NCBI GenBank assembly: GCA_043817315.1
Contig: JBDRGY010000004.1
Location: forward strand, 797-64,796
Reading direction: 5' to 3'
Origin: Patescibacteria group bacterium
GTDB lineage: Bacteria > Patescibacteriota > Patescibacteriia > JBDRGY01
DNA length: 64,000 bases
Under the pieces are notes generated by a model, which saw nothing but the letters and a program-made list of their open reading frames with translations, made no database searches and was not told the origin of the DNA. Of the stretch, positions 4,738 to 60,097 are shown in pieces (position 1 is the stretch's first letter; each line of letters starts with the position of its first letter). A program made the position numbers and the translations under genes.

Positions 4738-4927
4738 TGGTAACTTCAATACTGATCCTGAATTCTGGGACATGTCAGCTGACGACTACCACTTGTCAGC
4801 CACTTCACTCTGCCTGCCCGGCAACCATCCTGGTGGATGTAATGCCGAGTTGATCGGTGCTTATCCAGCTGATCTGACTCTAGTGGAATACCGATCCTGG
4901 GGGAGTATCAAGGCCATGTATCGTTGA
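4738..4927 (+). pseudogene. orphan 3' cassette or short ORF ending in the island C-terminal motif (...VEYRSWGSIKAMYR*)
   Basis: Frame open from the TAG at 4721. Strong SD AAGGAGG at 4731-4737 but no canonical start nearby (first ATG at 4772). The last 14 aa match the C-termini of the two downstream genes. Confidence 0.35.
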
Positions 4928-4977
4928 GCCTTTTAAGGTTACTGAAGGGTTGGCAACCAGTGAAAGGAGGTTAGGTC

Positions 4978-5727
4978 ATGTTTAGGCATCGAACATTCAT
5001 CTTTTTGATGGTGATGGCGTGTGTGACATTCGGGGCAGAGGCAACTGGACAGAGTGAGCAGTCCGGCCGCGAGTTGGTTTACGCGGAGGATTTCTCGTCA
5101 GACCCCGGCTACGACTCGATGCAGGATCTCTATGCCTTCTGGGATGCATCAGGCGGCAGCTACTTTGCACTCTCGCTGGACGTCAGTTCTGGCCTGGGAC
5201 GATACATGGGATACAGCCCGGAGTTCACAGTCGTCGCGGGCGACTTCACGGTGTCGTTTGACCTGATGGTTCTGGCTCAGGACTGGGGGTGTTATCCCGG
5301 TATCGTTTTTCAGAACACGAATGTACCGGATCCTGCCCAGCCCGATGGGTATCACGTCACCTTCTATGCCAAGTTTTTGTGGAGCGACCATGAAGTGCGC
5401 AAGTTCGCGATCATGCCAGATCAGGGGGAGTACCTTTTGACCCCGAGCTCGCCGAACGTCGGAGAGTGGTACCACTTCGAGGTGGTCTACCACTCCGGCA
5501 GTCAAACCGTCGATTGGACGATTGAGTCAGGCGGAGTGTTCTACCAGGTTGTCGGTGTCTCCTTTCCCCTGTCGACGGGTTTCAACAGGCTCTATATAGG
5601 TGAGATCACTCAGCCTCCTAAATATGGGGAGCAGACGGCGATCCGGGTGGATAATATCTCCGTATGGACCGGGATGGTTCCTGTAGAAAAGACGAGCTGG
5701 GGCAGTGTTAAGGCCATGTATCGTTAG
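4978..5727 (+). CDS. secreted protein, jelly-roll (LamG/DUF1080-like) domain, with conserved C-terminal WGSVKAMYR tail
   Basis: Signal peptide (FIFLMVMACVTFGAEA). SD AAAGGAGG 8 nt upstream. GC-rich codon usage unlike the flanks. C-terminus ...VEKTSWGSVKAMYR*. Confidence 0.6.
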   Translation: MFRHRTFIFLMVMACVTFGAEATGQSEQSGRELVYAEDFSSDPGYDSMQDLYAFWDASGGSYFALSLDVSSGLGRYMGYSPEFTVVAGDFTVSFDLMVLAQDWGCYPGIVFQNTNVPDPAQPDGYHVTFYAKFLWSDHEVRKFAIMPDQGEYLLTPSSPNVGEWYHFEVVYHSGSQTVDWTIESGGVFYQVVGVSFPLSTGFNRLYIGEITQPPKYGEQTAIRVDNISVWTGMVPVEKTSWGSVKAMYR

Positions 5728-5754
5728 ACACGTCAGTGTCAGAGAGGAGGAAGT

Positions 5755-6462
5755 ATGAGACGGGCCTGTCTTACTCTTACGCCGCTGCTGATCATCATTT
5801 TTAGCTGGAGCCTGTGTCTGGCGGACGGTGGTACGGTTTTCTTCATCGTCGACGGTGAGACAGTGGCACAGCTGGAGTGCCAGGAGTTTCCCATGGCCAA
5901 GCCGATCAAGCTGGCTGGCCGAAGTGGCGGTTCTGGCTGCTATCAACGCTCCGGGTTGATCGACAACGTTTACGTCGAACTGGGTGAAACCGGAGTAGTC
6001 TGCAACGAGGATTTCCAGTGCTTCGAGGTAGGTGGCTGGGTTCTCTACGGTGAACCTTCGCCGGTTATCCTGCTTGACTTCGGTAACCCATTACCCTGTC
6101 TGATGACTTCAGGCGACAGTTGGTACGACAGTGGCATATGTTCTGAAGCCCTCTACAATTGGTCAGCCGGATTCCACTTTGCCGCTTATGCTCACGTCGA
6201 TCAACAGGCGGCTTTTCACTCGGTGGAGATGGGAATCGCCGACCAGGATGCCCCCACTGATGAAGGTATCGGTCACGTCATTGGGGTCAATTGGAAAACC
6301 TCTGGCCAAGGCGACTACATCCTGCAGCTGGATACGGACATAGAAACCGTGCAGGTTCCAGCTCCGAGTTGCGGACAGTGGCACTGGATCGAGATCATCG
6401 GTATTCCTACTACCTCAGTCGAGAGTACGGACTGGGGTAGTATCAAAGCGTTATATCGTTAG
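5755..6462 (+). CDS. secreted Cys-containing protein with conserved C-terminal WGSIKALYR tail
   Basis: Signal peptide (LTLTPLLIIIFSWSLCLADG). SD GAGGAGG. GC-rich. C-terminus ...VESTDWGSIKALYR*. Not obviously homologous to 4978..5727 apart from the tail. Confidence 0.6.
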   Translation: MRRACLTLTPLLIIIFSWSLCLADGGTVFFIVDGETVAQLECQEFPMAKPIKLAGRSGGSGCYQRSGLIDNVYVELGETGVVCNEDFQCFEVGGWVLYGEPSPVILLDFGNPLPCLMTSGDSWYDSGICSEALYNWSAGFHFAAYAHVDQQAAFHSVEMGIADQDAPTDEGIGHVIGVNWKTSGQGDYILQLDTDIETVQVPAPSCGQWHWIEIIGIPTTSVESTDWGSIKALYR

Positions 6463-6558: not shown

Positions 6559-6635
6559 TGGTCGGAGTGGGGGGACTTGAACCCCCGACCTCAGCGTCCC
6601 GAACGCTGCGCGCTAGCCATCTGCGCCACACTCCG
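6559..6635 (-). tRNA. tRNA-Pro (anticodon CGG)
   Basis: Reverse complement: CGGAGTG TG GCGC AGATGGCTA GCGC G CAGCG TTCGGGA CGCTG AGGTC GGGGG TTCAAGT CCCCC CACTCCG A CCA. Cloverleaf with 7-bp acceptor, T-loop TTCAAGT and encoded CCA. Confidence 0.85.
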
Positions 6636-6878
6636 TTAGAAATTTTTGTTATCTAACCACTTTCTACCAACACCAGATTTCAGGAACCTTTCCCTTTTGG
6701 CGGCTTCTTCTTTTGTTTTGAATTTCTCATAATACATTAGCCAGAACGGTCCATTTTGTCTTGTCCATTTATTTGATCCGTTGTTATGTTCATATAGCCG
6801 TATCTTTGGTGACTTCTTTGTATACCCCACATAACGTTTTTTGTTTTTTGTGCTTCTAAGTACGTAGACATTATACAT
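6636..6878 (-). CDS. GIY-YIG domain protein (YhbQ/UPF0213-like small nuclease)
   Basis: VYVLRS...RYVGYT...RLYEHN matches the GIY-YIG core. Directly abuts the tRNA-Pro. Confidence 0.7.
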   Translation of the reverse strand: MYNVYVLRSTKNKKRYVGYTKKSPKIRLYEHNNGSNKWTRQNGPFWLMYYEKFKTKEEAAKRERFLKSGVGRKWLDNKNF

Positions 6879-6991
6879 TGTTCTTTGATTATTCTAGCCC
6901 CCGCCAGAGGCGGGTCCGCCTTCGGCGGAATCTGCGCTACACCCCGATATGACTATTTTATCAAATCTGGTCTTAAAAAAGAAGCCCGGGA

Positions 6992-7224
6992 TTATGATAA
7001 CTCCCGGGCGGTTCTGGAACGACGGAACAAGAGGCACAGAGGAAAGAAGATCGGCCAGCCGACAGTGCAGAAGAATCTAATGTCGTATTCCTCGCTGTGT
7101 GCCCGGTGCTCGGTCTTTCTATCCGGCCAGGGTACGTCGGCAAACAGGTACTGATAAGAGAGTCGCATGCCGATGAACCAGACTGCCAGCAGGGCATAGG
7201 ACACCACCATACCAATTGGCGACA
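6992..7224 (-). CDS. small two-TM membrane protein, GC-rich, strong SD
   Basis: Start placed at the internal ATG (MSPIGMVVSYALLAVWFIG...) preceded by AAGGAGG 5 nt upstream. GC-rich, like the island genes. Confidence 0.45.
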
Positions 7225-7390
7225 TTTTGCCTCCTTTCCGTCTGAGTAAAGGAACGATTAAAAATGTTAACAAAAAGGATTGTTTTTGTCAATAAATTAG
7301 AGAAATTGAGACATATTGACCGAATTAGCTATTTGTAATAGACTTATAATTGATATTTAATAACAATCTGAAATTTCCGTTTTTTTATCT

Positions 7391-27142: not shown

Positions 27143-27760
27143 CTAAGTGGCTTGCTGCCAGCGTTTGCCGGTGATGAACCGGCCGAAGTGGGGCCAAAAG
27201 GACCAGCGAAGGTTGTGAACCAGAGCCTGTAACAAGATCCAAACAGCCCAGCTACCCAGACAAACTAACAGTCCGGCAGTAGGCCCGGCTCCTAGCCATA
27301 TGTATAAACTGATGATGGCTCCGCGGAACAAAAGTCCGTTGGGACCGCTAACGATGATTGTGGCAAATCCGTAGTAGGCGAAACAGATGAGCATACAGGT
27401 AGTGACCGCATCTCTGTAGTTGAAAAGATAGAGAATGAAGGCCATGAAGGCTCCAATCATGAAACAGGCCACAGGCACCATGGTGGAACCCATGACAAAT
27501 TCTGACCGGTGATTCTTGATTTCGGGATCGAACTTGATGTTAAGGAAGCTGGCGGTCATGGTGAGGGCGACTAAGGGAACATAGACAAGATCCCAAAGCC
27601 GGCTGACTGGCTGGAAAGTCCAGCTATAGAATTGCCAACCTTGACTGGGAATCGATCCGGCAATCAGATGCCAGATCATCCAGAAGGCAGAGATGGTGAC
27701 CAGACTGAACAACGGCCAACGCCAACACAACTGCCATTTCCTGACAGTGACCTGATCCAC
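27143..27760 (-). CDS. Trp-rich polytopic membrane protein (5-6 TM), possible small-solute transporter S-component-like
   Basis: Hydropathy only. No signature motif recognised. Confidence 0.45.
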   Translation of the reverse strand: MDQVTVRKWQLCWRWPLFSLVTISAFWMIWHLIAGSIPSQGWQFYSWTFQPVSRLWDLVYVPLVALTMTASFLNIKFDPEIKNHRSEFVMGSTMVPVACFMIGAFMAFILYLFNYRDAVTTCMLICFAYYGFATIIVSGPNGLLFRGAIISLYIWLGAGPTAGLLVCLGSWAVWILLQALVHNLRWSFWPHFGRFITGKRWQQAT

Positions 27761-49445: not shown

Positions 49446-49958
49446 ATGAAAATTGCCCTAAAAATAATTTTCGTTATCTTGTTAATTTGGGGCACAATCG
49501 TCATCGCCAGAGGGGGTTACATCGGTTTACTAGATAACGTTAATCTGATATGGCACGAAGCAGGCCATACCTTATTTGTTTTCTTCGGTGATTTCGTCAG
49601 AATATTAGGGGGATCACTGACTCAAGTCTTAATACCGCTACTATGTGGTGTTGTTTTTTTAGTCAAGCGCCAGTGGTTTGCCAGCACTTTCGCTTTGTGG
49701 TGGGCAGGCCAAAATCTTACTAATGTCAGTATCTATATTGGTGATGCCCGGGCTCTGAAGTTAGACCTTATTGGTGGAGAGGCCTCTATCCATGACTGGA
49801 ATTATCTTTTGGGGATGATGGGCCAGCGGCATTTGGATATGGCCATAGCTAGTTATGTCTGGTGGATCGGGATGATAGCCATGGGAGCAGCCCTGTTTTT
49901 AACACTTTATTTTATTTGGCGTGATGACATCAAAACCAAAAAGGGGATAGCGCTTTAA
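49446..49958 (+). CDS. membrane protein (unknown function)
   Basis: Four to five TM helices. Confidence 0.5.
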   Translation: MKIALKIIFVILLIWGTIVIARGGYIGLLDNVNLIWHEAGHTLFVFFGDFVRILGGSLTQVLIPLLCGVVFLVKRQWFASTFALWWAGQNLTNVSIYIGDARALKLDLIGGEASIHDWNYLLGMMGQRHLDMAIASYVWWIGMIAMGAALFLTLYFIWRDDIKTKKGIAL

Positions 49959-49982
49959 AACCACTAAAAATTAATTATTACC

Positions 49983-50013
49983 AAAAAACACCCCCTATTT
50001 AGGGTGATTTTTT
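49983..50013. terminator. bidirectional rho-independent terminator
   Basis: AAAAAA-CACCC-cctattta-GGGTG-ATTTTTT. Confidence 0.6.
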
Positions 50014-50020
50014 AACGGAA

Positions 50021-50275
50021 AGAAAATAGGGGACAAGCGTGTTGATTGCCTGTCCCCTGACGCATAGCCATGTAGAGTGCAGATCGGAACGTCCAGGTGT
50101 TGAGCCTGGAACCTAATCGTTGGCTGCAACGACCTGAGGCTATCAACCTCTTTAAGGACGCCCTAATTTGGCACCTCCCCCTTTCGGGCATTTGCGGCTT
50201 CGCGTCGACATGAACCCGCCTACCAAGAGGCGGGGGGTACCGCGACAGCAGTCATCATCGTCTGCCCTGCTGCCA
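50021..50275 (-). ncRNA. candidate structured ncRNA 1 (about 250 nt, GC-rich, ORF-free), identity unassigned
   Basis: Minus-strand TTGACA(50310-50305)-17-TAATAT(50287-50282) promoter. No ORF over 42 codons in any frame. Multiple GC hairpins including a CCC-GAAA-GGG GNRA hairpin. Ends in GGGGACA...TGTCCCC followed by UAUUUUCU. Confidence 0.35.
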
Positions 50276-50323
50276 ATAATTATATTAGATAAAAGCAATT
50301 AATATGTCAATTGATATATTGTG

Positions 50324-50354
50324 GAAAAAAAACGGGCAAGTTTTTAACTTGCCC
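50324..50354 (-). terminator. rho-independent terminator (after the small acidic ORF)
   Basis: GGGCAAG-ttaaaaa-CTTGCCC followed by GTTTTTTTT on the minus strand. Confidence 0.6.
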
Positions 50355-50497
50355 TAAAGATCGTCTGCCTCTTCTTCAAGCTCGATACTTCTGATGACAG
50401 CAGCCAGGTCATGTTCCTGGCTAACGGGTACAGGCTGATCTTCACCGTCTTCTTCTCTCATCCAATTCTCGGGATTTATCAGTTCGGCATGGTGCAC
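50354..50497 (-). CDS. small acidic protein (48 aa with GTG start, or 35 aa from the internal ATG)
   Basis: AAGGAGG then 5 nt then GTG. ...MREEDGEDQPVPVSQEHDLAAVIRSIELEEEADDL*. Below the ORF-track size cutoff. Confidence 0.3.
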   Translation of the reverse strand: MHHAELINPENWMREEDGEDQPVPVSQEHDLAAVIRSIELEEEADDL

Positions 50498-50820
50498 TTT
50501 ATCCTCCTTGGTTGGAGCTTCTCCACAAAAACCTTAAGTTTGACATTATGACCGAAAGAGTTGGGGACATCTCCAGCCGGAGCCGTCAAAGCCATCCTGG
50601 GGCGCCGACTTACGGTCTGGGGTGCAATGAGCTGTTGCTTCAATATTGCGGAGGTTGAGAGCGGTTGAGAGCAAGTGTTTGTAGATCGTGCCTATTTACC
50701 GATCTCTCAGCCTCCACTTGGAGAAGGAGTATGAAGCGAATTAATTCTATCTGATAATACGAATCTAGTCAAAAAAATTTGACAAAATATAGTTTAGTAA
50801 TAATATGGAAGCAGCTCTTT

Positions 50821-51294
50821 ATGTCGGATAACACTTTAGGCCAAAAGCGAAGGAGGGACCAAGTGTCTGAATCGAGACAAGGCTTACCTCGAGTTCTTGT
50901 CATCTTAGCCAAGAGAAAATTCAACCGGGACTTGGGAAGCGGTGGGACTCCCACATATTGGTTAGTGCACAGTGAAGTGGTGGAGCTCCATACTTGTACT
51001 ACTTGCCGAGGTTTGATCCGGCAGATTCGAAGTGCTCAGCGCCAGTCCCGACCTTTTGGGGCAGTAGTGGTGGAGGCGACTGATAACGAATCCAGCATTC
51101 GCCAGGAAGTGCTGGAAGAAGCTATGGAGCATATACCGGAAGGTACTACTTTGTTGAAAATAGAAAAGGGGCCGGTCTGTATGCAAGTCTGTTCTTTTGA
51201 CGCTGCGGAAGGCGATTTCGCGGTACGGGGCAACAGTACCAGCGGCGACCGCTTAGCCGCAACCATCATGGCCCTTTGCTCATCAGCACAATAG
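50821..51294 (+). CDS. hypothetical GC-rich protein (start uncertain; GTG at 50857 has a perfect AAGGAGG SD)
   Basis: The listed ORF starts at 50779, but a TTGACA-16-TAATAT promoter lies inside it. Internal ATG at 50821 or GTG at 50857. Confidence 0.4.
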   Translation: MSDNTLGQKRRRDQVSESRQGLPRVLVILAKRKFNRDLGSGGTPTYWLVHSEVVELHTCTTCRGLIRQIRSAQRQSRPFGAVVVEATDNESSIRQEVLEEAMEHIPEGTTLLKIEKGPVCMQVCSFDAAEGDFAVRGNSTSGDRLAATIMALCSSAQ

Positions 51295-51299
51295 TCTAT

Positions 51300-51380
51300 A
51301 CCAGGGCGCTTCCTTAAGAAGCGTCTTTTTAAATAAAAAAGACGTATCCTGGAATCTGGATACGTCTTATGAATAAGGTA
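51300..51380. terminator. pair of convergent terminators
   Basis: GCGCTTC-cttaa-GAAGCG followed by TCTTTTT for plus. AGACGTATCC-agattcca-GGATACGTCT followed by TTTTTTATTT on minus. Confidence 0.6.
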
Positions 51381-51387
51381 CATCTCT

Positions 51388-51642
51388 TCAGCTGTCGTTG
51401 CCTTCGGCAGGTGGCTGCCATTCAGTCAGCAGTCGTTCCGGGACGAAAGTCTTGCCGTGAGGTTCGTCTGACTGGGTGTCGAAAACCTCTACCTCTAGCC
51501 AGTTCTGCGGTCTTTCCCCATTTGGCTTGACTTCGCCAGTCAACCTGAGCCTATTACCCTCCGGAGTCAATTGACCCAGCTTGGTGGTGACCGGAGCACG
51601 GACAGTACAAAAGACAACTTCTCCCTTCTCTGGAACTGACAT
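51388..51642 (-). CDS. small GC-rich protein, family member A (LLTEW family)
   Basis: SD AGGAGA. ...LRLTGEVKPNGERPQNWLEVEVFDTQSDEPHGKTFVPERLLTEWQPP. Confidence 0.55.
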   Translation of the reverse strand: MSVPEKGEVVFCTVRAPVTTKLGQLTPEGNRLRLTGEVKPNGERPQNWLEVEVFDTQSDEPHGKTFVPERLLTEWQPPAEGNDS

Positions 51643-51789
51643 AGGTCTCTCCTGGTATGGGCCTGGACCATCACTTCGACCTTAGCCAGCTCATGCTGCC
51701 GTAAGTGATTACATTTTAGTTCTAATTAGGTTTTTGTCAAGAAATGAGCGCATCGCGTCGGAGACGCGATGCGCTCTGGAAAACTCCTC

Positions 51790-52038
51790 CTAGATTCCCT
51801 TGAACGGCCAATGCCACTCGGTCAGCAGAACCTGCGGAAAAACTGCCCTACCCAACACCTTATCGTCCAGGAAGTTTCTCCTGACCTCTGCTTCAACTCC
51901 GGCAGCTGGCCTGCCTTGCCAGACAACCTGTTCTTCATGACCCGTTAAGATCAGGTAGTGATCGTCTGGGGTTACTTCTCCAAAGTCAGTGTCAAACGGT
52001 TCTCTGACTTTGTGTCTTTTGGCATCGATCAGGCCCAT
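51790..52038 (-). CDS. small GC-rich protein, family member B
   Basis: Start at the internal ATG with SD AGGAGG (MGLIDAKRHK...). ...LILTGHEEQVVWQGRPAAGVEAEVRRNF...RAVFPQVLLTEWHWP. Confidence 0.55.
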   Translation of the reverse strand: MGLIDAKRHKVREPFDTDFGEVTPDDHYLILTGHEEQVVWQGRPAAGVEAEVRRNFLDDKVLGRAVFPQVLLTEWHWPFKGI

Positions 52039-52173
52039 CCCTATCCTCCTGTCGGCGGTTTTTGCCGGCCCAACTACCTGATTACCGAAATGTATTAATA
52101 ATACTATTCTATATTTTCTATTTGTCAAGAAAAAGAGTATAATAATTGTGTAGGATTATTAATCAAAATAGCA

Positions 52174-52761
52174 ATGGAACAAGAAAAAAACGATTATCAA
52201 CAACCAAGTCAATTTGGCAACCAAGAACCGGCCAAAAAACATTTTGGCTTGAAAAAAGCAGTTCTGGTCATCAGCATTGTTATTGTCTTGAATCTGTTTA
52301 TCGGCTATGGCATAACTACTTTTTGGCATACACCCCAATATGAGGACTACTGCACCGAGGAGATTACCTCTAAGACATATTCTGACCAGGAATCCTGTGA
52401 AGCAGCTGGAGGTAAATGGATAATAAGCGCAGAAGTGGGTGTCCCGGAAGAGAAAAGCAGAATAAGTAATTGGTGTGAAATGGATTACCAGTGCCGGCAG
52501 GAGTATCAAGCAGCTTCCGATGTTTATGGCCGTAACTTCTTTGTCGTTGAAATAATAGCTGGAGTAATTCTGATAGTAGTCGGCTTGTTTGCCATCAAGG
52601 CCCAGTCGGTTTCTTTGGGGCTTTCTTTCGGTGGTCTGCTGGCCTTGATTGTCGGTACCATGCGGCACTGGTCAGGGATGCAGGAATATCTGAGATTTAT
52701 CATTCTAGGTCTGGCCCTGATTATCCTGATCTGGGTGGGAGTCAAGAAGTTCAAAGATTAA
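52174..52761 (+). CDS. membrane protein (host-like AT-rich composition)
   Basis: N-terminal TM, a Cys-containing ectodomain, C-terminal TMs. Confidence 0.5.
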   Translation: MEQEKNDYQQPSQFGNQEPAKKHFGLKKAVLVISIVIVLNLFIGYGITTFWHTPQYEDYCTEEITSKTYSDQESCEAAGGKWIISAEVGVPEEKSRISNWCEMDYQCRQEYQAASDVYGRNFFVVEIIAGVILIVVGLFAIKAQSVSLGLSFGGLLALIVGTMRHWSGMQEYLRFIILGLALIILIWVGVKKFKD

Positions 52762-52773
52762 TCACAATATTTT

Positions 52774-53538
52774 ATGCGAGTAGACGATCAAGACAAGTCT
52801 AAAAAAGAAGAAAAACTAAAGGAAGAGTCAAAACAACCAGAACCTGCTAGAGGAGACAAGCCCAAAAAGAAGGGCCACCTGTTACGCAACTGTTTTATCA
52901 TTGTGCTCATTGTCTTCATTTTATTGATCTTGGCGATTGTTTCCCTGTTCTTCTTTAAGGTCCCGGTTATTTCTTCAATCGTTGGATTAAACAGTCAGAA
53001 GGATTTGGGGATTGAAGCCACTGAGGAAGCTAAAGACAGTGCCCAGCAAAAAGTGCCCTGGCAATTTACGGCTGAGATGTCGGAATATACCTTGACGGGG
53101 AATAGAACTTTTTCCGGGAAGATGGACTTAGATGTAGAACTGACATCAGAAGAGGTTACTTCCTACCTTGGACTAATGGGATTTCCGGATGAAGTCATTG
53201 AAAATGTCCAAGTTAAAATGGTTGAAGGCGGAATGGAAATTTCTTCTCAGATAAAAGAGCCGGTTAACTTACCAGTATATTTTAAAGTAGATATAGATAA
53301 GGAGTCAGCCAAAAGTGTCAGCCTAGACATTCAGAAAGCTAAAGTGGGATGGTTCTCTGTACCGCAAAAGTACATAGATCAGGCCGAAGAGTTTTTCCAA
53401 GACACAGTCAATGGGAGGTTAACGGAGGTGGAGGCAGTAAGCATCGAAACCCTTGAGTATCATGACGGCTATTCCGTTTTTAAAGGCACAGTGCCTGAGA
53501 AAGTGGAACCAGCTTATGGTAAATGGCTTGATATCTAA
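52774..53538 (+). CDS. membrane-anchored protein with Lys/Glu-rich N-terminal tail
   Basis: Single TM and an extracytoplasmic domain. Confidence 0.5.
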   Translation: MRVDDQDKSKKEEKLKEESKQPEPARGDKPKKKGHLLRNCFIIVLIVFILLILAIVSLFFFKVPVISSIVGLNSQKDLGIEATEEAKDSAQQKVPWQFTAEMSEYTLTGNRTFSGKMDLDVELTSEEVTSYLGLMGFPDEVIENVQVKMVEGGMEISSQIKEPVNLPVYFKVDIDKESAKSVSLDIQKAKVGWFSVPQKYIDQAEEFFQDTVNGRLTEVEAVSIETLEYHDGYSVFKGTVPEKVEPAYGKWLDI

Positions 53539-53607
53539 GCTAGTATAAATCAAACAGAACCCGGGTCAATAGGCTTGGGTTCTTATATATAAAAAAACGG
53601 ACGACTA

Positions 53608-53892
53608 TCAAGTCGTCCGGATAAGCCAATCGGGCAGATCTTCGGTCATGATGTGTCTGATCGGTACCACGACGGGACCGTTGTAGGAAGCCTTGCCGCT
53701 CTCCAGCTCCACCTCAATACCGCATTCGAAACGCCAGTGTCCTCGAGGATCGTGGAAGATGGCAATGCCCTCTTCTCCGGTAACCCGGCCGGAAGCACCA
53801 TGAGGGATTTTGACCGTCTTACCATGATGACCCAACACTTCCACTTCACCTACTTCTACCTGTAAGCCTTTCAATTGACTGATTTTCAACAT
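53608..53892 (-). CDS. small GC-rich protein, family member C
   Basis: Start at the internal ATG with SD GGGAGGA (MLKISQLKG...). ...RVTGEEGIAIFHDPRGHWRFECGIEVELESGKASYNGPVVVPIRHIMTEDLPDW. Confidence 0.5.
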   Translation of the reverse strand: MLKISQLKGLQVEVGEVEVLGHHGKTVKIPHGASGRVTGEEGIAIFHDPRGHWRFECGIEVELESGKASYNGPVVVPIRHIMTEDLPDWLIRTT

Positions 53893-54058
53893 GATCCTAT
53901 CCTCCCAAGGAAAGGTGGGGGTTCTTGATGCCCGATTGCTAAGGTACATTTGCCTTATCTTACAGTTTCTCTTTTATTTAGTCAAACCCTGCACCAGACG
54001 GTGCAGGGTAAATTAAAAAGGACGGCGGATAGTTTGCCGTCCAATGAACATGGGCCCT

Positions 54059-54280
54059 CTAGCCCTCGACTGGGTCCAGATGAGTGGCTGGCACCAAGAC
54101 ATGGTCACCTTCGACTACCACTTCGATCAGCAGCCCCTGATCTTGTGAGGGTAGTTTGGCCTCGTGAGCCAGTCTGGCCTCAGTACCTTGGAGCAAAACC
54201 TTGGGCAAGGTGCCGACTCTGACATCGGCCCTCTGGTTGACTATAACTCTGGTTCCTGCCATCAGCTTGCTATTGGCCAT
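54059..54280 (-). CDS. small GC-rich protein, family member D (shorter)
   Basis: MANSKLMAGTRVIV...GLLIEVVVEGDHVLVPATHLDP. Confidence 0.45.
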   Translation of the reverse strand: MANSKLMAGTRVIVNQRADVRVGTLPKVLLQGTEARLAHEAKLPSQDQGLLIEVVVEGDHVLVPATHLDPVEG

Positions 54281-54436
54281 GATGTTCCCCCCTGGTTGTC
54301 GCTCTCCCGTTCTTAAGACCCGAAACAGTTTATTACAATATTACTTATTGATTTTTTTGTCAAGCCCTGCATCAGACGATGCAGAGCAAGTAGATAAAAA
54401 AAGATGGCAGATGCTCTTGCCATCTTGGGCCGTGGG

Positions 54437-54709
54437 CTAGCGGCTCTCATCAACCAGTCCCAGCATGACATCAGTGATGTCGATGACTCCTGGTTCCCGG
54501 TCGGGCCCGATCAAGCAGACCATGCCTCGGTGCACCTGGCCAAACTCATCGGTGAACTCCCGGTCCTCTCCCAGGTAGCGAAACTGGGTGCCGCCCGGGA
54601 ATCGGTAGTTGCGAGGCGAATCATCTTTCTTGATCGGAGCCTCTTTCTGTCCCGGGGCCGGAGACTTTAGCTCCAGCTACTTACCATTTAGTTCTGCCCT
54701 GGTGACCAT
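54437..54709 (-). pseudogene. family member E interrupted by an in-frame TAG after codon 10
   Basis: SD GGGGG then 7 nt then ATG. MVTRAELNGK*LELKSP...RFPGGTQFRYLGEDREFTDEFGQVHRGMVCLIGPDREPGVIDITDVMLGLVDESR*. Stop at 54677-54679. Not in the ORF track because it has no long ATG-initiated frame. Confidence 0.4.
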
Positions 54710-54845
54710 TTGGTTACCCCCTTTTCGGGCCTCCTACCTCGTAGATTTGGCGCCCTGGAATGAACATTTAAACTTAAGGGATATTAAAGAATTTGTCAAG
54801 GCCTTAGCCGTAGTCAAAGCTCTTTTGTCAATGGGCGGCTTTTGC

Positions 54846-55490
54846 TTAGGTCGCCCTTTTTGTTTCCCGGTATAAATGGATAATTCGTTGAATAAAAGTA
54901 AAGTGGGTAAAAATGGCCATAATAATCATCAGGATGACAATAGCGTCTAGGCCCCAGAAATGAGCTAGAAACAAACCAATTATTAACAGGATAAAACGGG
55001 GAGCTCTTTGAAAAAAGCCTATGTTACACTCGATGCCGATCCCCTCAGCCCTGGCCCGGACGTAGGATACTAAAAAGGAACCGATTAAGGCCAACCAGAT
55101 AAATATTACCTGCCAGTCTTTGAGGGAATCGAGGTAGTGAAGATAAATGGCCAAAAAGATTACAAATTCAGAATATCGATCTAGAAAGGAATCAAAGAAA
55201 GCGCCAAAGCTGGAGACTCTATTTTGTTTTCTGGCTACCATTCCGTCGATCACGTCAAAATTGACAGCCAGAAAAGTAATGATACCGCCGATCAAGAAAT
55301 TCCCGAGATAAATAAAATAGGCGGCGATCAAGAACATTACAAATCCCAGAACCGTAACCAGATTAGGATGCACTTTTGATTTGGCCAAGCCATTGGCTAT
55401 GGGCTGCCACAGTTTTAAGTAACTCAGGGAAACAGGGTGGTGGCGGGAAAAGTTGAATCGTGATTCTATCATATCACCATTGTAGCACAT
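54846..55490 (-). CDS. CDP-alcohol phosphatidyltransferase
   Basis: DVIDGMVARKQNRVSSFGAFFDSFLD = DG-x2-AR-x8-G-x3-D-x3-D. Confidence 0.8.
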   Translation of the reverse strand: MCYNGDMIESRFNFSRHHPVSLSYLKLWQPIANGLAKSKVHPNLVTVLGFVMFLIAAYFIYLGNFLIGGIITFLAVNFDVIDGMVARKQNRVSSFGAFFDSFLDRYSEFVIFLAIYLHYLDSLKDWQVIFIWLALIGSFLVSYVRARAEGIGIECNIGFFQRAPRFILLIIGLFLAHFWGLDAIVILMIIMAIFTHFTFIQRIIHLYRETKRAT

Positions 55491-55574
55491 CGAATGTTTA
55501 ATAACGAGATTGACAGGAGCAGTATATAAAGTTATGATTCAGCCGTCTATCAATAAATCAGCGACGGCGCTAAT

Positions 55575-56573
55575 ATGAAAAGATATCGTAAAAAAATTTG
55601 CTTGCTGTTTGCCGGAGGTACAAAATTATCCCACTCGAGTGGTAAGGGTTTTGAAGTTAAAAAGACTGACGATATTAAACCCTGGCTAATGCATTTTGAA
55701 GAATTGAATATTATGGCTGACATTGAGTCGGTTTTTATTTTTGGCGGAAAGTCGGAGAATGTAACAGTTGATCAATGGATCAAATTAATCGATGAGATCA
55801 AGAAGAGAATCAATTCCAGCGACGGATTCGTAGTCTTGCAGGGACCACAGACTATGAACTATACAGCTTGCGCCCTGACCTTTGCTTTCCAGAATTTAAA
55901 CAAACCGATTATTTTAACCGGTTCCCCGTTTACCCCCCAGACTAAAAGTCAGCAAGCGGATCCGCTAGAAGAGTATAAGGGTTTAGGAATCAAAGCCAAT
56001 TTACTAAACGCCATCCAAGTTGCTTTGTCCGATATCAACCAGGTGGCCATCCTTTTCGGCTCGCGCCTGATTTCTGGAGTACAAGCGGTACAGGCTACTC
56101 CGCCAGGGTTGAATTTCTTTGATTCTTTCTCCGGTCATTTTTTGGGAAGGGTTGATTTTGGCATTAGTTTGTTTGGCAAAACTAAAAAGAGTAAAGCCAA
56201 AATGAAGTTTAGTAACGGCTTTGACAATAAAGTCTCTATTTTGGACTGGCATCCGGGGGTGGATGTCTCCTTGATCCAGAATCTGAAAAAACAAAAAATT
56301 CACGGATTGATAATAAGAATGCATCATCAGACAGTGCTGCCCGACAGTTTCTTGCCCGCTCTGCGAAAACTAGCCAAGGACAGTATTCCGGTAATTATCT
56401 ACCAATCCGGCCAAGAACAAAAATTTTTAAAAGGCGCCAATATCATCATGATTGAAAATATGAGCCTGTCAGCTGTTTTGGTGAAATTGATGTGGGTGTT
56501 GGCTCAGACCAAGAGCCTGTCCAAAATTAAAAGTCTAATGGCTAGAAATTTATCAGGAGAGATAGTCAAATAG
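55575..56573 (+). CDS. asparaginase/glutaminase-family protein (catalytic motif degenerate)
   Basis: LLFAGGT N-terminal motif. VVLQGPQTM where the canonical motif is HGTDTM. Confidence 0.55.
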   Translation: MKRYRKKICLLFAGGTKLSHSSGKGFEVKKTDDIKPWLMHFEELNIMADIESVFIFGGKSENVTVDQWIKLIDEIKKRINSSDGFVVLQGPQTMNYTACALTFAFQNLNKPIILTGSPFTPQTKSQQADPLEEYKGLGIKANLLNAIQVALSDINQVAILFGSRLISGVQAVQATPPGLNFFDSFSGHFLGRVDFGISLFGKTKKSKAKMKFSNGFDNKVSILDWHPGVDVSLIQNLKKQKIHGLIIRMHHQTVLPDSFLPALRKLAKDSIPVIIYQSGQEQKFLKGANIIMIENMSLSAVLVKLMWVLAQTKSLSKIKSLMARNLSGEIVK

Positions 56574-59481: not shown

Positions 59482-59787
59482 ATGTCTAAAATATTAATAA
59501 CCACTAATTTTATTGTTCAGCCAGACAAGGTTAATCAGTTTAAAGATTTCCTGCAGTAATTGGTAAAGGCTGGCCAAGAGCTCAAGGGGGTTGAAAAAAG
59601 TTATATTTGTCGCCATCAAGAGTAGTCTAATATATTGTCCACCTGGACCATAATCGATACGCCGGCCAACGCCGAGAATCTCAAAAGAACTTTCCGAGAC
59701 GATATAGACTTTGCTCAAAAATATTTAGCGGCAATGGAGCTTCTGGAAGCTAAACCGAAATTAGCTACTTACCAAATCGTGGGATAA
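59482..59787 (+). pseudogene. ABM (antibiotic-biosynthesis-monooxygenase-like) domain gene with two in-frame stops (TAA 59557-59559, TAG 59623-59625)
   Basis: MSKILITTNFIVQPDKVNQFKDFLQ*LVKAGQELKGVEKSYICRHQE*SNILSTWTIIDTPANAENLKRTFRDDIDFAQKYLAAMELLEAKPKLATYQIVG*. Confidence 0.5.
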
Positions 59788-60097
59788 AAAAACGCCCCCA
59801 CATCCTCAAGGGCGCTTGTCAGTCAGCTGAAGGGTTACCTTCAATGGCCCACTGTCTAGGAGCGGGCGCCTGGCCAGGCGACAGGAATTCAGAAACCGAT
59901 CTCATGCCTTCTTACGCCCGGAAGACACGAATGCAGGGACGTCTGCATGCCGCAGGGGGTGGCGGACGGTGTCCTAGGTTCACTGCCAGGTCAGACTAGC
60001 TGATTCCTTTTCGAACAGCTGACTTATGTAGCGCTTATGGAGGAATAGGGAGCGTCAAAGCTCCTTGATAATGAACAAAATCCGAGTAAGCGGATAA
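59786..60097 (-). ncRNA. candidate structured ncRNA 2 (about 300 nt, GC-rich, ORF-free), identity unassigned
   Basis: Minus-strand TTGACG(60131-60126)-15-TATAAT(60110-60105) promoter. Stops in all frames. Many GC hairpins. Ends in ACGCCC...GGGCGT followed by UUUUUUU (plus 59785-59814). Confidence 0.35.

What the first reader, a model, noticed from the sequence alone, without database searches (positions are those of the whole stretch)
51388..54709. Cluster of at least five paralogous small GC-rich proteins (LLTEW family), one carrying an in-frame TAG
Five minus-strand genes share a pattern: an N-terminal M(A/V/L)x...G, then LTGE/VTGEE, then an acidic strand (EVEV, EAEV, EVEL, EVVVEG, IDITDV), then a VPxxLLTEW-like C-terminus. 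These are A (51388..51642), B (51790..52038), C (53608..53892), D (54059..54280) and E (54437..54709). All are much more GC-rich than the genome and have strong SDs. They are interleaved with AT-rich host-like membrane genes. Copy E is interrupted by TAG at codon 11. A 13-bp perfect-stem hairpin (51742-51772) lies between A and B. The loose pattern resembles small beta-barrel domains such as PRC-barrel, but I cannot assign a family. Tentatively this is a novel multicopy small-protein module, possibly horizontally acquired.
Basis: partly seen in the sequence, partly recalled or inferred. Interest (0 to 1): 0.7.

Follow-up and report, generated by a model that had tools for sequence, protein, structure and literature searches.

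The report
Small SH3-like protein genes in Patescibacteria
Five small, GC-rich, separately transcribed protein genes are really there in this candidate-phyla-radiation bacterium, but only two (perhaps four) belong to one new, very narrowly distributed family of SH3-like mini-barrel proteins of unknown function, and the in-frame TAG is an ordinary nonsense mutation.

Summary
The window is a Patescibacteria (CPR) MAG contig. All five minus-strand ORFs exist as described. They are GC-rich (52-58% against 42%), and each has its own sigma70-like promoter, Shine-Dalgarno site and intrinsic terminator.

**Family membership**
- A and B are clear paralogues (39% identity, z=15).
- An exhaustive HMMER search of 1.84 billion proteins found only two further relatives, in two related Patescibacteria. 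One relative's contig carries three more members in tandem around the same conserved membrane-protein gene.
- D is a probable distant member and C a possible one. Both rest on weak profile-profile signal that lines up with the family motifs.
- E shows no similarity to the others and forms a separate family.

**Fold and databases**
- The shared "hhVPxxLL" tail resembles the generic SH3 signature.
- Pfam, NCBIfam, PHROGs, PADLOC, PDB sequences and the phage collections gave no match.

**The in-frame TAG**
- A co-occurring strain has an intact 88-aa allele of E with Leu at that codon. dN/dS is 0.24, so the frame is coding.
- TAG is also the normal stop of B, D and E, so the window's E is a nonsense allele.

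Function is unknown. The best guess is fast-evolving cytoplasmic protein-binding modules. This is a new family of a known fold, of modest interest.

The parts
51388..51642 (-). Gene A (84 aa, ABIB97_03025): core member of the new SH3-like family
51713..51740 (-). Promoter of A (TTGACA-16-TAAAAT)
   Evidence: 11 of 12 matches to consensus.
51339..51368 (-). Intrinsic terminator after A
   Evidence: 11-bp stem plus T-run.
51790..52038 (-). Gene B (82 aa, ABIB97_03030): core family member, orthologue of P0012 (53% identity)
52101..52128 (-). Promoter of B (TTGACA-16-TAGTAT), back-to-back with the promoter of the 195-aa membrane-protein gene
   Evidence: The block TTATTATACTCTTTTTCTTGAC is conserved in L005.
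51746..51776 (-). 14-bp perfect hairpin: terminator of B, directly upstream of A's -35
53608..53892 (-). Gene C (94 aa, ABIB97_03045): ORFan, possible remote member or same fold
53957..53985 (-). Promoter of C (TTGACT-17-TAAGAT)
53598..53619 (-). Terminator after C
53989..54006 (.). Palindrome CTGCAC-N6-GTGCAG abutting the -35 of C's promoter
   Evidence: 2 copies in the window against 0.02 expected. The same element lies before the s3 promoter in L005.
54059..54280 (-). Gene D (73 aa, ABIB97_03050): probable distant family member
   Evidence: blastp to P0013 gives E=3e-4, 39% over 49 aa, in register with the family motifs. Shuffle p=0.001. Coding-type GC1/2/3 of .69/.36/.61. mRNA z=-0.75.
54335..54363 (-). 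Promoter of D (TTGACA-17-TATTGT)
54020..54042 (-). Terminator after D (GGACGGCaaactatCCGCCGTCC plus T-run)
   Evidence: Read from the sequence.
54367..54384 (.). Palindrome CTGCAT-N6-ATGCAG abutting the -35 of D's promoter. It carries a compensatory change relative to the copy at 53989-54006.
54437..54709 (-). Gene E: nonsense allele (TAG at 54677-54679) of a separate small-protein family
   Evidence: The intact 88-aa allele P0011 is 66% identical, with CTG at that codon. dN=0.25, dS=1.04. No similarity to A-D.
54771..54799 (-). Putative promoter of E (TTGACA-17-TAAGTT). Similarity to the E2 locus L004 begins here.
   Evidence: Not reported by the consensus scan, so weaker than the others.
54401..54426 (-). 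Terminator after E
52174..52761 (+). Conserved 195-aa, 4-TM, Cys-rich membrane protein gene. The small-gene arrays flank it in both the window and L005.
   Evidence: 72% identical orthologue in L005/L007, with small ORFs on both sides.

Best explanation
**What the locus is (shown).** It is a lineage-specific array of autonomous small-protein genes in a Patescibacteria genome. Each unit consists of a sigma70-type promoter, an SD site, an ORF of 73-94 codons and an intrinsic terminator. Each encodes a soluble, mildly acidic protein (pI 4.8-6.0) with no signal peptide.

**Family membership.**
- A and B are shown to be paralogues of a previously undescribed family. Its consensus is F..V.EP...G..TP..H.L.(P/L)TG....G.EV.V.....G..hVP..LLT.W..P.
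- The predicted fold of A is an SH3-like small beta-barrel.
- D is probably a very divergent member and C possibly one (weak evidence).
- E belongs to a different small-protein family. In this genome a nonsense TAG inactivates it.

**Evolution (shown).** The family is confined to a few closely related Patescibacteria. There it sits on both sides of a conserved 4-TM membrane-protein gene downstream of the dcw cluster. It evolves about twice as fast as its neighbours and gains or loses copies between lineages.

**Mechanism (inferred, roughly 0.2-0.3 likely).** Like other stand-alone SH3-like barrels such as FeoA, PsaE, NdhS or CarD-RID, the proteins would act as abundant stoichiometric binders of a peptide segment of a partner protein. 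Duplication and divergence would retune specificity. The syntenic membrane protein is the most obvious candidate partner.
For: **The genes are real and independently transcribed.**
- ORFs, SD sites, promoters and terminators are all present. The region has 16 promoter-like sites against 6.0 expected, and 15 terminator-like sites against 5.4.
- All five show coding-type GC1>GC3>GC2 periodicity.
- The C and D transcripts have no excess RNA structure.
- Independent ENA assemblies reproduce the region at 99.4-99.9% identity.
- E against E2 gives dN/dS=0.24.

**A and B belong to a family.**
- A-B give z=14.9.
- The exhaustive HMMER search found P0012 at 8e-19 and P0013 at 1.7e-6.
- L005 s4, s5 and s2 link to the core with z=3.5-14. 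The 7-sequence alignment is A3.

**Synteny.** L006 carries mraZ-rsmH-PBP-murF followed by P0013. L005/L007 carry the mem195 orthologue flanked by six small ORFs.

**D.**

**C/D group.** hhalign scores 24.7 with P=4.8e-4. The shuffled null is 9.4 +/- 1.9 with a maximum of 14.6.

**Fast evolution.** A/P0013 are 36% identical where MurF, PBP and MraZ are 78-88%. B/s6 are 53% identical where mem195 is 72%.

**TAG is a true stop.** B, D and E themselves end in TAG, and E2 has CTG at that codon.
Against: - Membership of C and D is not significant when each is taken alone: HMM E=4-8 in a database of 326 ORFs, and composition-controlled p=0.03 and 0.13.
- hhalign probability for the C/D group is only 32%, and the signal is unstable across subsets.
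- The C model has low confidence (pLDDT 57). D and E were not modelled.
- The 'hhVPxxhh' motif resembles the generic SH3 signature. It could therefore reflect a shared fold rather than shared descent.
- No functional evidence exists. There are no annotated homologues and no informative domains in the neighbours.
- The synteny with the membrane protein rests on only two lineages.
Confidence: 0.6

Rival explanations
1. This is a hot-spot of unrelated ORFans. Apart from the A/B duplication, the five genes are independent acquisitions or inventions. They resemble each other only through amino-acid composition and a common beta-rich fold signature.
For: - No pairwise significance beyond A-B.
- The HMM scores of C, D and E are explained by composition.
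- E is clearly separate.
- GC3 and TAG stop usage are foreign-like.
- Gene content differs between strains and lineages.
Against: - The D-P0013 alignment is in register with the family motifs, p=0.001.
- The independent {C,D,s1,s3} profile matches the core profile co-linearly, far above the shuffled nulls.
- The same locus holds bona fide family members in three lineages.
Confidence: 0.25
2. This is a mobile cassette array. Promoter-ORF-terminator units would be exchanged between co-occurring Patescibacteria by recombination at hairpin/-35 junctions. They would serve as a diversifying repertoire for immunity, anti-phage defence or host interaction.
For: - Between two populations, E and E2 are about 75% identical in DNA (dS about 1), while the adjoining D-C block is about 99.6% identical.
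- The E2 unit has a different upstream neighbour, and homology starts at the -35 TTGACA.
- In L005 a block beginning with the same palindrome plus TTGACA and carrying s3-s5 sits between the conserved promoter block and the B orthologue.
- The palindrome carries a compensatory change.
Against: - Repeat analysis of 49900-55000 found no flanking direct repeats. The ORFs of the 50000-56500 region include no obvious recombinase, but the rest of the window was not screened for one.
- The palindrome is short (18 nt) and has only 2 copies in 64 kb.
- There are no relatives in IMG/VR or in phage genomes.
- The motif's hits in viral contigs are few, about as many as a rough estimate of chance.
- PADLOC gives no hit.
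- Ordinary homologous recombination between strains explains the mosaic equally well.
Confidence: 0.1
3. The GC-rich units are non-coding RNAs or spurious ORFs, not protein genes.
For: - GC-rich islands in an AT-rich genome are often RNA genes.
- A neighbouring unit at 50000-50280(-) does look like a structured RNA, z=-4.1.
- C, D and E have no distant protein homologues.
Against: - Each ORF fills its transcription unit and has an SD at the correct spacing.
- Codon-position GC periodicity is present.
- Protein-level conservation far exceeds DNA conservation for A/B/P0012/P0013.
- E/E2 give dN/dS 0.24.
- The C and D RNAs fold no better than shuffles.
- There are no Rfam matches.
Confidence: 0.03
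4. The in-frame TAG in E is decoded, by read-through, pyrrolysine or an alternative code, so E is full length.
For: The 79 codons after the TAG are still open, and the frame is under purifying selection in the E2 allele.
Against: - TAG terminates B, D, E and many host genes.
- The intact allele has Leu (CTG) there, not a conserved TAG.
- No in-frame ATG, GTG or TTG follows until about 30 codons before the end of the ORF (and sequence reading).
- The alternative explanations are a recent nonsense mutation or a consensus error in a low-coverage MAG.
Confidence: 0.02

Closest known systems
SH3-like small beta-barrel fold (SCOP b.34; eukaryotic SH3, KOW, Tudor/chromo-like, Sm-like domains)
   Different: There is no sequence similarity to any Pfam SH3-clan family or to any PDB chain. 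The proteins are stand-alone, cytoplasmic and acidic. The peptide-binding residues of canonical SH3 domains (ALYDY, WW) are absent.
Stand-alone bacterial SH3-like proteins encoded next to a membrane partner, e.g. FeoA (PF04023) with FeoB
   Same: They are similar in size (about 75-85 aa), SH3-like fold and cytoplasmic location. They often occur as more than one paralogue and are encoded beside a membrane protein gene (general knowledge; PMC8980893 was listed but not read). Here the family flanks the conserved mem195 gene in two lineages.
   Different: There is no FeoA Pfam hit even at E<=10. The neighbouring membrane protein is not FeoB-like: it has no Pfam domain and no G-domain. The interaction is purely hypothetical.
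   Same: It is a small all-beta protein of similar length.
Integron gene-cassette arrays and orphan immunity-gene arrays
   Same: These are tandem, same-orientation, small, compositionally atypical ORFs of unknown function whose content varies between strains.
   Different: The 50000-56500 region holds no obvious integrase ORF and no attC-like sites of 55-140 nt; the whole window was not screened for a recombinase. Each unit carries its own promoter and terminator. No toxin or polymorphic-toxin gene is seen in the region, and PADLOC is negative.

Membership tests
New 'LxPTG...VPxxLLTxW' family (this work; core = A, B, P0012, P0013, L005 s2/s4/s5) | Significant sequence similarity to the core profile | tested here: met
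   Met for A and B: A-B z=14.9; HMMER gives P0012 at 8e-19 and P0013 at 1.7e-6; s4, s5 and s2 are linked.
New 'LxPTG...VPxxLLTxW' family: membership of D | Significant, in-register similarity to at least one core member or to the profile | tested here: inconclusive
   blastp of D against P0013 gives E=3e-4, shuffle p=0.001, in register. Against that, HMM p=0.13 and hhalign of D alone gives P=0.46.
New 'LxPTG...VPxxLLTxW' family: membership of C | Significant, in-register similarity to the profile, or the same fold with equivalent motifs | tested here: inconclusive
   HMM shuffle p=0.03. hhalign gives P=0.095 for C alone and 4.8e-4 when C is grouped with D, s1 and s3. The AF2 model has only pLDDT 57, with similar strand order.
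New 'LxPTG...VPxxLLTxW' family: membership of E | Significant similarity to the profile | tested here: not met
   SW z<1 against A-D. hhalign of the E/E2 profile against the core, the group and the union gives P>=0.095. HMM shuffle p=0.3-0.5.
SH3-like fold (structural class) | Predicted or solved structure superposes on SH3-fold barrels | tested here: met
Pfam SH3 clan families (SH3_1-9, FeoA, KOW, PsaE, NdhS, CarD_TRCF_RID etc.) | Match to the family HMM at or near the gathering threshold | tested here: not met
   No Pfam hit for any of the 12 small proteins to any such family at E<=10.
PRC-barrel (PF05239) | Match to the PF05239 HMM, or PRC-barrel structures as the closest fold | tested here: not met
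Integron cassette array | IntI tyrosine recombinase with attI, plus attC sites bounding promoterless cassettes | tested here: not met
   Each unit has its own promoter. The only repeated element is an 18-nt palindrome. There are no long imperfect inverted repeats. The whole window was not scanned with an integrase HMM.
Known anti-phage defence or phage protein families | Match to PADLOC or PHROGs models, or to phage genomes | tested here: not met

The most novel reading that the evidence does not exclude
The arrays would be an exchangeable repertoire of autonomous promoter-ORF-terminator cassettes encoding SH3-like binders. The cassettes would be swapped among co-occurring Patescibacteria at hairpin/-35 junctions. 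They would be kept diverse by conflict, such as immunity, anti-phage defence or host-symbiont interaction. That would be a promoter-carrying, integrase-less analogue of integron cassette arrays in ultra-small bacteria.
Probability: 0.1. Interest if true: 0.65.

Novelty: new member of a known kind. Interest (0 to 1): 0.3.

Why it matters
CPR/Patescibacteria genomes are dominated by proteins of unknown function, and small proteins are the least studied of them. This locus defines a new sequence family with a confidently predicted SH3-like fold. The family has an extremely narrow distribution, with relatives found in only two other lineages among 1.84 billion representative proteins. It shows rapid divergence, copy-number turnover and a live nonsense polymorphism. 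That makes it a compact example of lineage-specific gene-family birth and decay in reduced genomes. If a partner such as the syntenic membrane protein were identified, it would also give a handle on a CPR-specific process. As it stands it is a modest addition, not a new kind of system.

Tried and rejected
**RNA explanations**
- Rfam at gathering and permissive thresholds found only a distant tRNA-Pro. RNA-gene explanations for A-E were dropped.

**Protein family and sequence searches**
- Pfam, NCBIfam, PHROGs, PADLOC and PDB-sequence searches gave nothing.
- K-mer-seeded searches of 5.8 billion proteins with A+B, E+E2 and C returned only the same population's variants.
- tblastn of A and E2 against 50,697 phage genomes, and IMG/VR scans with the B/P0012 and E/E2 patterns, gave nothing.
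- BFVD fold search had no hit at E<=0.001. The AFDB50 library was unavailable.

**Locus searches**
- Genome-contig scans with the neighbouring pgsA-like protein and the mem195 alignment found nothing.
- The metagenome scan recovered only the L005 organism again, as L007.
- Family alignments were too divergent for the back-translation locus search.

**Side leads**
- The hairpin-plus-TTGAC pattern in viral contigs gave 5 hits, about what I estimate for chance. They were not followed up.
- The ncRNA-like stretches downstream of family genes in the window, L005 and L006 do not align, so there is no evidence of a co-occurring conserved RNA.
- A DGR-type mechanism for the E/E2 divergence was considered and dropped. 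The repeat search of 49900-55000 found no template-like copy of E, the differences are spread over the gene, and many are synonymous. No reverse-transcriptase search was run.
- A RiPP-precursor reading was rejected. The proteins are Cys-poor, their C-terminus rather than a leader is conserved, and no modification-enzyme domain was found in the neighbouring genes scanned.

**Technical failures**
- Retrieval of the rest of the NCBI contig failed.
Full report
**Source and setting.** The window is part of a 136,977-bp contig of a Patescibacteria (CPR) MAG (locus tags ABIB97_030xx). Its GC content is 42.4%. The finding lies just downstream of a dcw cluster (mraZ, rsmH, PBP, murF). Most genes there are on the plus strand. 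The plus-strand gene run is interrupted by two GC-rich stretches, about 49960-52170 and 53540-54845, that carry minus-strand units.

**The observation.**
- All five ORFs are present at the stated coordinates, and E has TAG at codon 11.
- GC is 0.52-0.58 and GC3 0.55-0.68. Host genes have GC3 0.29-0.51, and the ribosomal protein genes L10 and L7/L12 have 0.40 and 0.44. The bias is therefore not an expression-linked codon preference.
- Each ORF has an SD 6-9 nt upstream of the ATG. A-D have TTGACA-type promoters matching 9-11 of 12 consensus positions. All five have an intrinsic terminator. E's promoter is weaker, TTGACA-17-TAAGTT.
- The hairpin between A and B is a 14-bp perfect stem at 51746-51776 and is B's terminator.
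- Independent ENA assemblies reproduce the region at 99.4-99.9% identity (L001, L003, L013). It is not an assembly artefact.

**Coding or not.**
- All five frames show GC1>GC3>GC2 periodicity like the bona fide genes.
- The C and D transcripts fold no better than dinucleotide shuffles (z=-0.6 and -0.75).
- Rfam finds nothing.
- For A and B, similarity to relatives is detectable at the protein level, down to 33-53% identity.
- E can be compared with a second allele, E2 (P0011, 88 aa, 66% identical). There dN=0.25 and dS=1.04.
- These are protein genes.

**Are they one family?**
- Only A-B are significantly similar among the five (39% over 72 aa; SW z=14.9). All other pairs have z<2.
- The A+B profile does not detect C, D or E.
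- The exhaustive HMMER search of 1.84 billion representatives with the A+B profile found just two relatives, P0012 (8e-19) and P0013 (1.7e-6).
- P0013 lies at the end of a contig of GCA_048633705.1 that is syntenic with the window: mraZ-rsmH-PBP-murF-276aa....
- P0012 lies on a 3.7-kb ENA contig, L005, which is the same organism as L007. That contig carries the orthologue (72%) of the window's 195-aa membrane protein, flanked by six small ORFs of 79-98 aa.
- Of those six, s6 (=P0012), s4, s5 and s2 join A, B and P0013 in a 7-member alignment. Its consensus is F..V.EP...G..TP..H.L.(P/L)TG....G.EV.V.....G..hVP..LLT.W..P.
- An HMM built from this alignment recovers only those seven among all ORFs of at least 45 aa in the window and loci. 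C, s3 and D are among the top ten non-members (E=4-8 in a database of 326). After composition-preserving shuffling this is p=0.03, 0.05 and 0.13, and 0.3-0.5 for E and E2.

Two further tests give limited support for C and D:
- D aligns to P0013 in register with the family motifs (RVI..R.D / K..L.GT / GL.IEV). blastp gives E=3e-4 and shuffling gives p=0.001.
- An independently built alignment of {C, D, s1, s3} matches the core profile co-linearly over 47 columns. The hhalign score is 24.7 with P=4.8e-4, against shuffled nulls of 9.4 +/- 1.9 (maximum 14.6). The probability is only 32%, however, and the signal weakens in subsets.
- The E/E2 profile matches nothing.

Conclusion: A and B are definite members, D probable, C possible, and E a different family.

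**Fold.**
- AlphaFold2 on A gives pLDDT 79.6 and pTM 0.69, an all-beta protein.
- In the model, residues 61-74 (GKTFVP-ERL-LTE) form strand d, a 3-10 turn and strand e. This is the position of the canonical SH3 'G..GhhP.NYV' signature (my reading).
It marks the fold, not necessarily common descent.
- No PRC-barrel match was seen.

**Databases.** There are no matches in Pfam, NCBIfam, PHROGs, PADLOC, PDB sequences, BFVD, phage genomes or IMG/VR. NCBI annotates A-D as hypothetical proteins.

**The TAG in E.**
- TAG is the ordinary stop of B, D and E and of many host genes.
- The intact allele E2 has CTG (Leu) at this codon and a normal ATG and SD.
- After the TAG there is no in-frame start codon until about 30 codons from the end.
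- The window's E is therefore a recently inactivated allele, or a consensus error in the MAG. It is not a recoding event.

**Evolutionary behaviour.**
- The small proteins diverge faster than their neighbours. A/P0013 are 36% identical where MraZ, MurF, PBP and RsmH are 78-88%. B/s6 are 53% identical where mem195 is 72%.
- Copy number and content differ at the same locus. L005 has s3-s4-s5 between the conserved promoter block (TTATTATACTCTTTTTCTTGAC) and the B orthologue. It has s1-s2 where the window has mem254 and C-D-E.
- Between two co-occurring populations the D-C block is about 99.6% identical, while E and E2 are about 75% identical. The E2 unit abuts a different upstream gene (AstE/AspA-like), and homology to the window starts at the -35 hexamer.
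- The family members are GC-richer than their host genes in all three lineages. This argues against a single recent transfer. It fits either a family-specific compositional constraint or circulation in a shared accessory pool. No donor or mobile-element gene was found.

**Regulatory oddity.** An 18-nt palindrome, CTGCAy-N6-rTGCAG (extended form CCCTGCAC...GTGCAGGG), sits immediately 5' of the -35 of the D and C promoters. One symmetric (compensatory) change distinguishes the two copies. The same element precedes the s3 promoter in L005. There are only two copies in 64 kb against 0.02 expected. Its role (operator, RNA or DNA hairpin, recombination junction) is unresolved.

**How it most likely works.**
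- Shown: these are five autonomous transcription units for small soluble proteins, two of which are certainly SH3-like family paralogues.
- Inferred: like other stand-alone SH3-like barrels, the proteins act as stoichiometric binders of a peptide segment of a partner. Duplication and divergence would alter specificity.
- The conserved 4-TM, Cys-rich membrane protein that the arrays flank in both lineages where this can be seen is the obvious candidate partner, a FeoA/FeoB-like arrangement. I put this at 0.2-0.3.
- The turnover, the relaxed constraint (dN/dS 0.24) and the nonsense allele mark the genes as accessory rather than core.
- A conflict-related role (immunity or defence) is equally unproven.

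**Verdict.** The 'five paralogues' interpretation is only partly right. The family is new at the sequence level but belongs to a very common fold class, and nothing points to a new kind of system. Interest is modest (0.3). Novelty: a new member of a known kind.

Noticed in passing
window 50000-50310 (-): A GC-rich unit of about 270 nt with no ORF. It has its own promoter (TTGACA-17-TAATAT, 50310-50282) and a terminator. It folds far better than shuffles (z=-4.1, 0 of 200). There is no Rfam match, so it is a candidate novel structured ncRNA.
   Followed up: partly
window 50354-50737 (-): A 47-aa, extremely acidic ORF (pI 4.1; ABIB97_03015) with a strong SD (GTG start) and terminator. It is preceded by a leader of about 230 nt from a TTGACT-17-TAGAAT promoter. 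A strain variant differs by QP>RH.
   Followed up: partly
window 50863-51294 (+): A GC-rich 143-aa ORF (GTG start after an AGGAGGG SD), antisense-embedded among the minus-strand units. It carries a CTTC (CxxC) motif after a beta-strand, and its only Pfam hit is a faint one to iodothyronine deiodinase, a thioredoxin-fold family (E=0.079). It is possibly a thioredoxin-like protein.
   Followed up: partly
window 53989-54006 and 54367-54384; L005 about 1399-1420: A conserved palindrome, CCCTGCAy-N6-rTGCAGGG, lies directly upstream of the -35 TTGACA of the C, D and L005-s3 promoters. It carries a compensatory change. It could be an operator, a hairpin or a recombination junction.
   Followed up: partly
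window 4772-6462 (+): Three consecutive GC-rich ORFs (GC3 0.61-0.68 for the two long ones, which also have signal-peptide-like N-termini). All end in the same C-terminal motif WGS[VI]KA[ML]YR. They look foreign to this genome and are possibly a transferred secreted-protein family.
   Followed up: no
window 27143-27760 (-): Another compositionally atypical gene (GC 0.52, GC3 0.64, TAG stop) among AT-richer neighbours.
   Followed up: no
window 59734-60079: A GC-rich (up to 0.615) intergenic stretch without a convincing ORF. There is no Rfam match at E<=0.1. It is another possible ncRNA.
   Followed up: partly
window 53542-53569 (-): A promoter-like site (TTGACC-16-TATACT) lies just after C's terminator and points antisense into the 3' end of the 254-aa membrane-protein gene. 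It may be an antisense transcript or an sRNA.
   Followed up: no
L005 2990-3250 (+); L006 305-590 (+): GC-rich, ORF-free stretches ending in terminator-like hairpins lie downstream of the family genes in both relatives; the L005 one is also preceded by a promoter-like site. They do not align with each other or with the window's ncRNA candidate.
   Followed up: partly
window 6636-6878 (-), next to tRNA-Pro at 6559-6635: An 80-aa ORF whose N-terminus (YVLRS...RYVGYT) looks GIY-YIG-like abuts a tRNA-Pro gene and is followed by a GC-rich stretch (6890-7260) without a clear gene. The resemblance was judged by eye only; no domain search was run.
   Followed up: no
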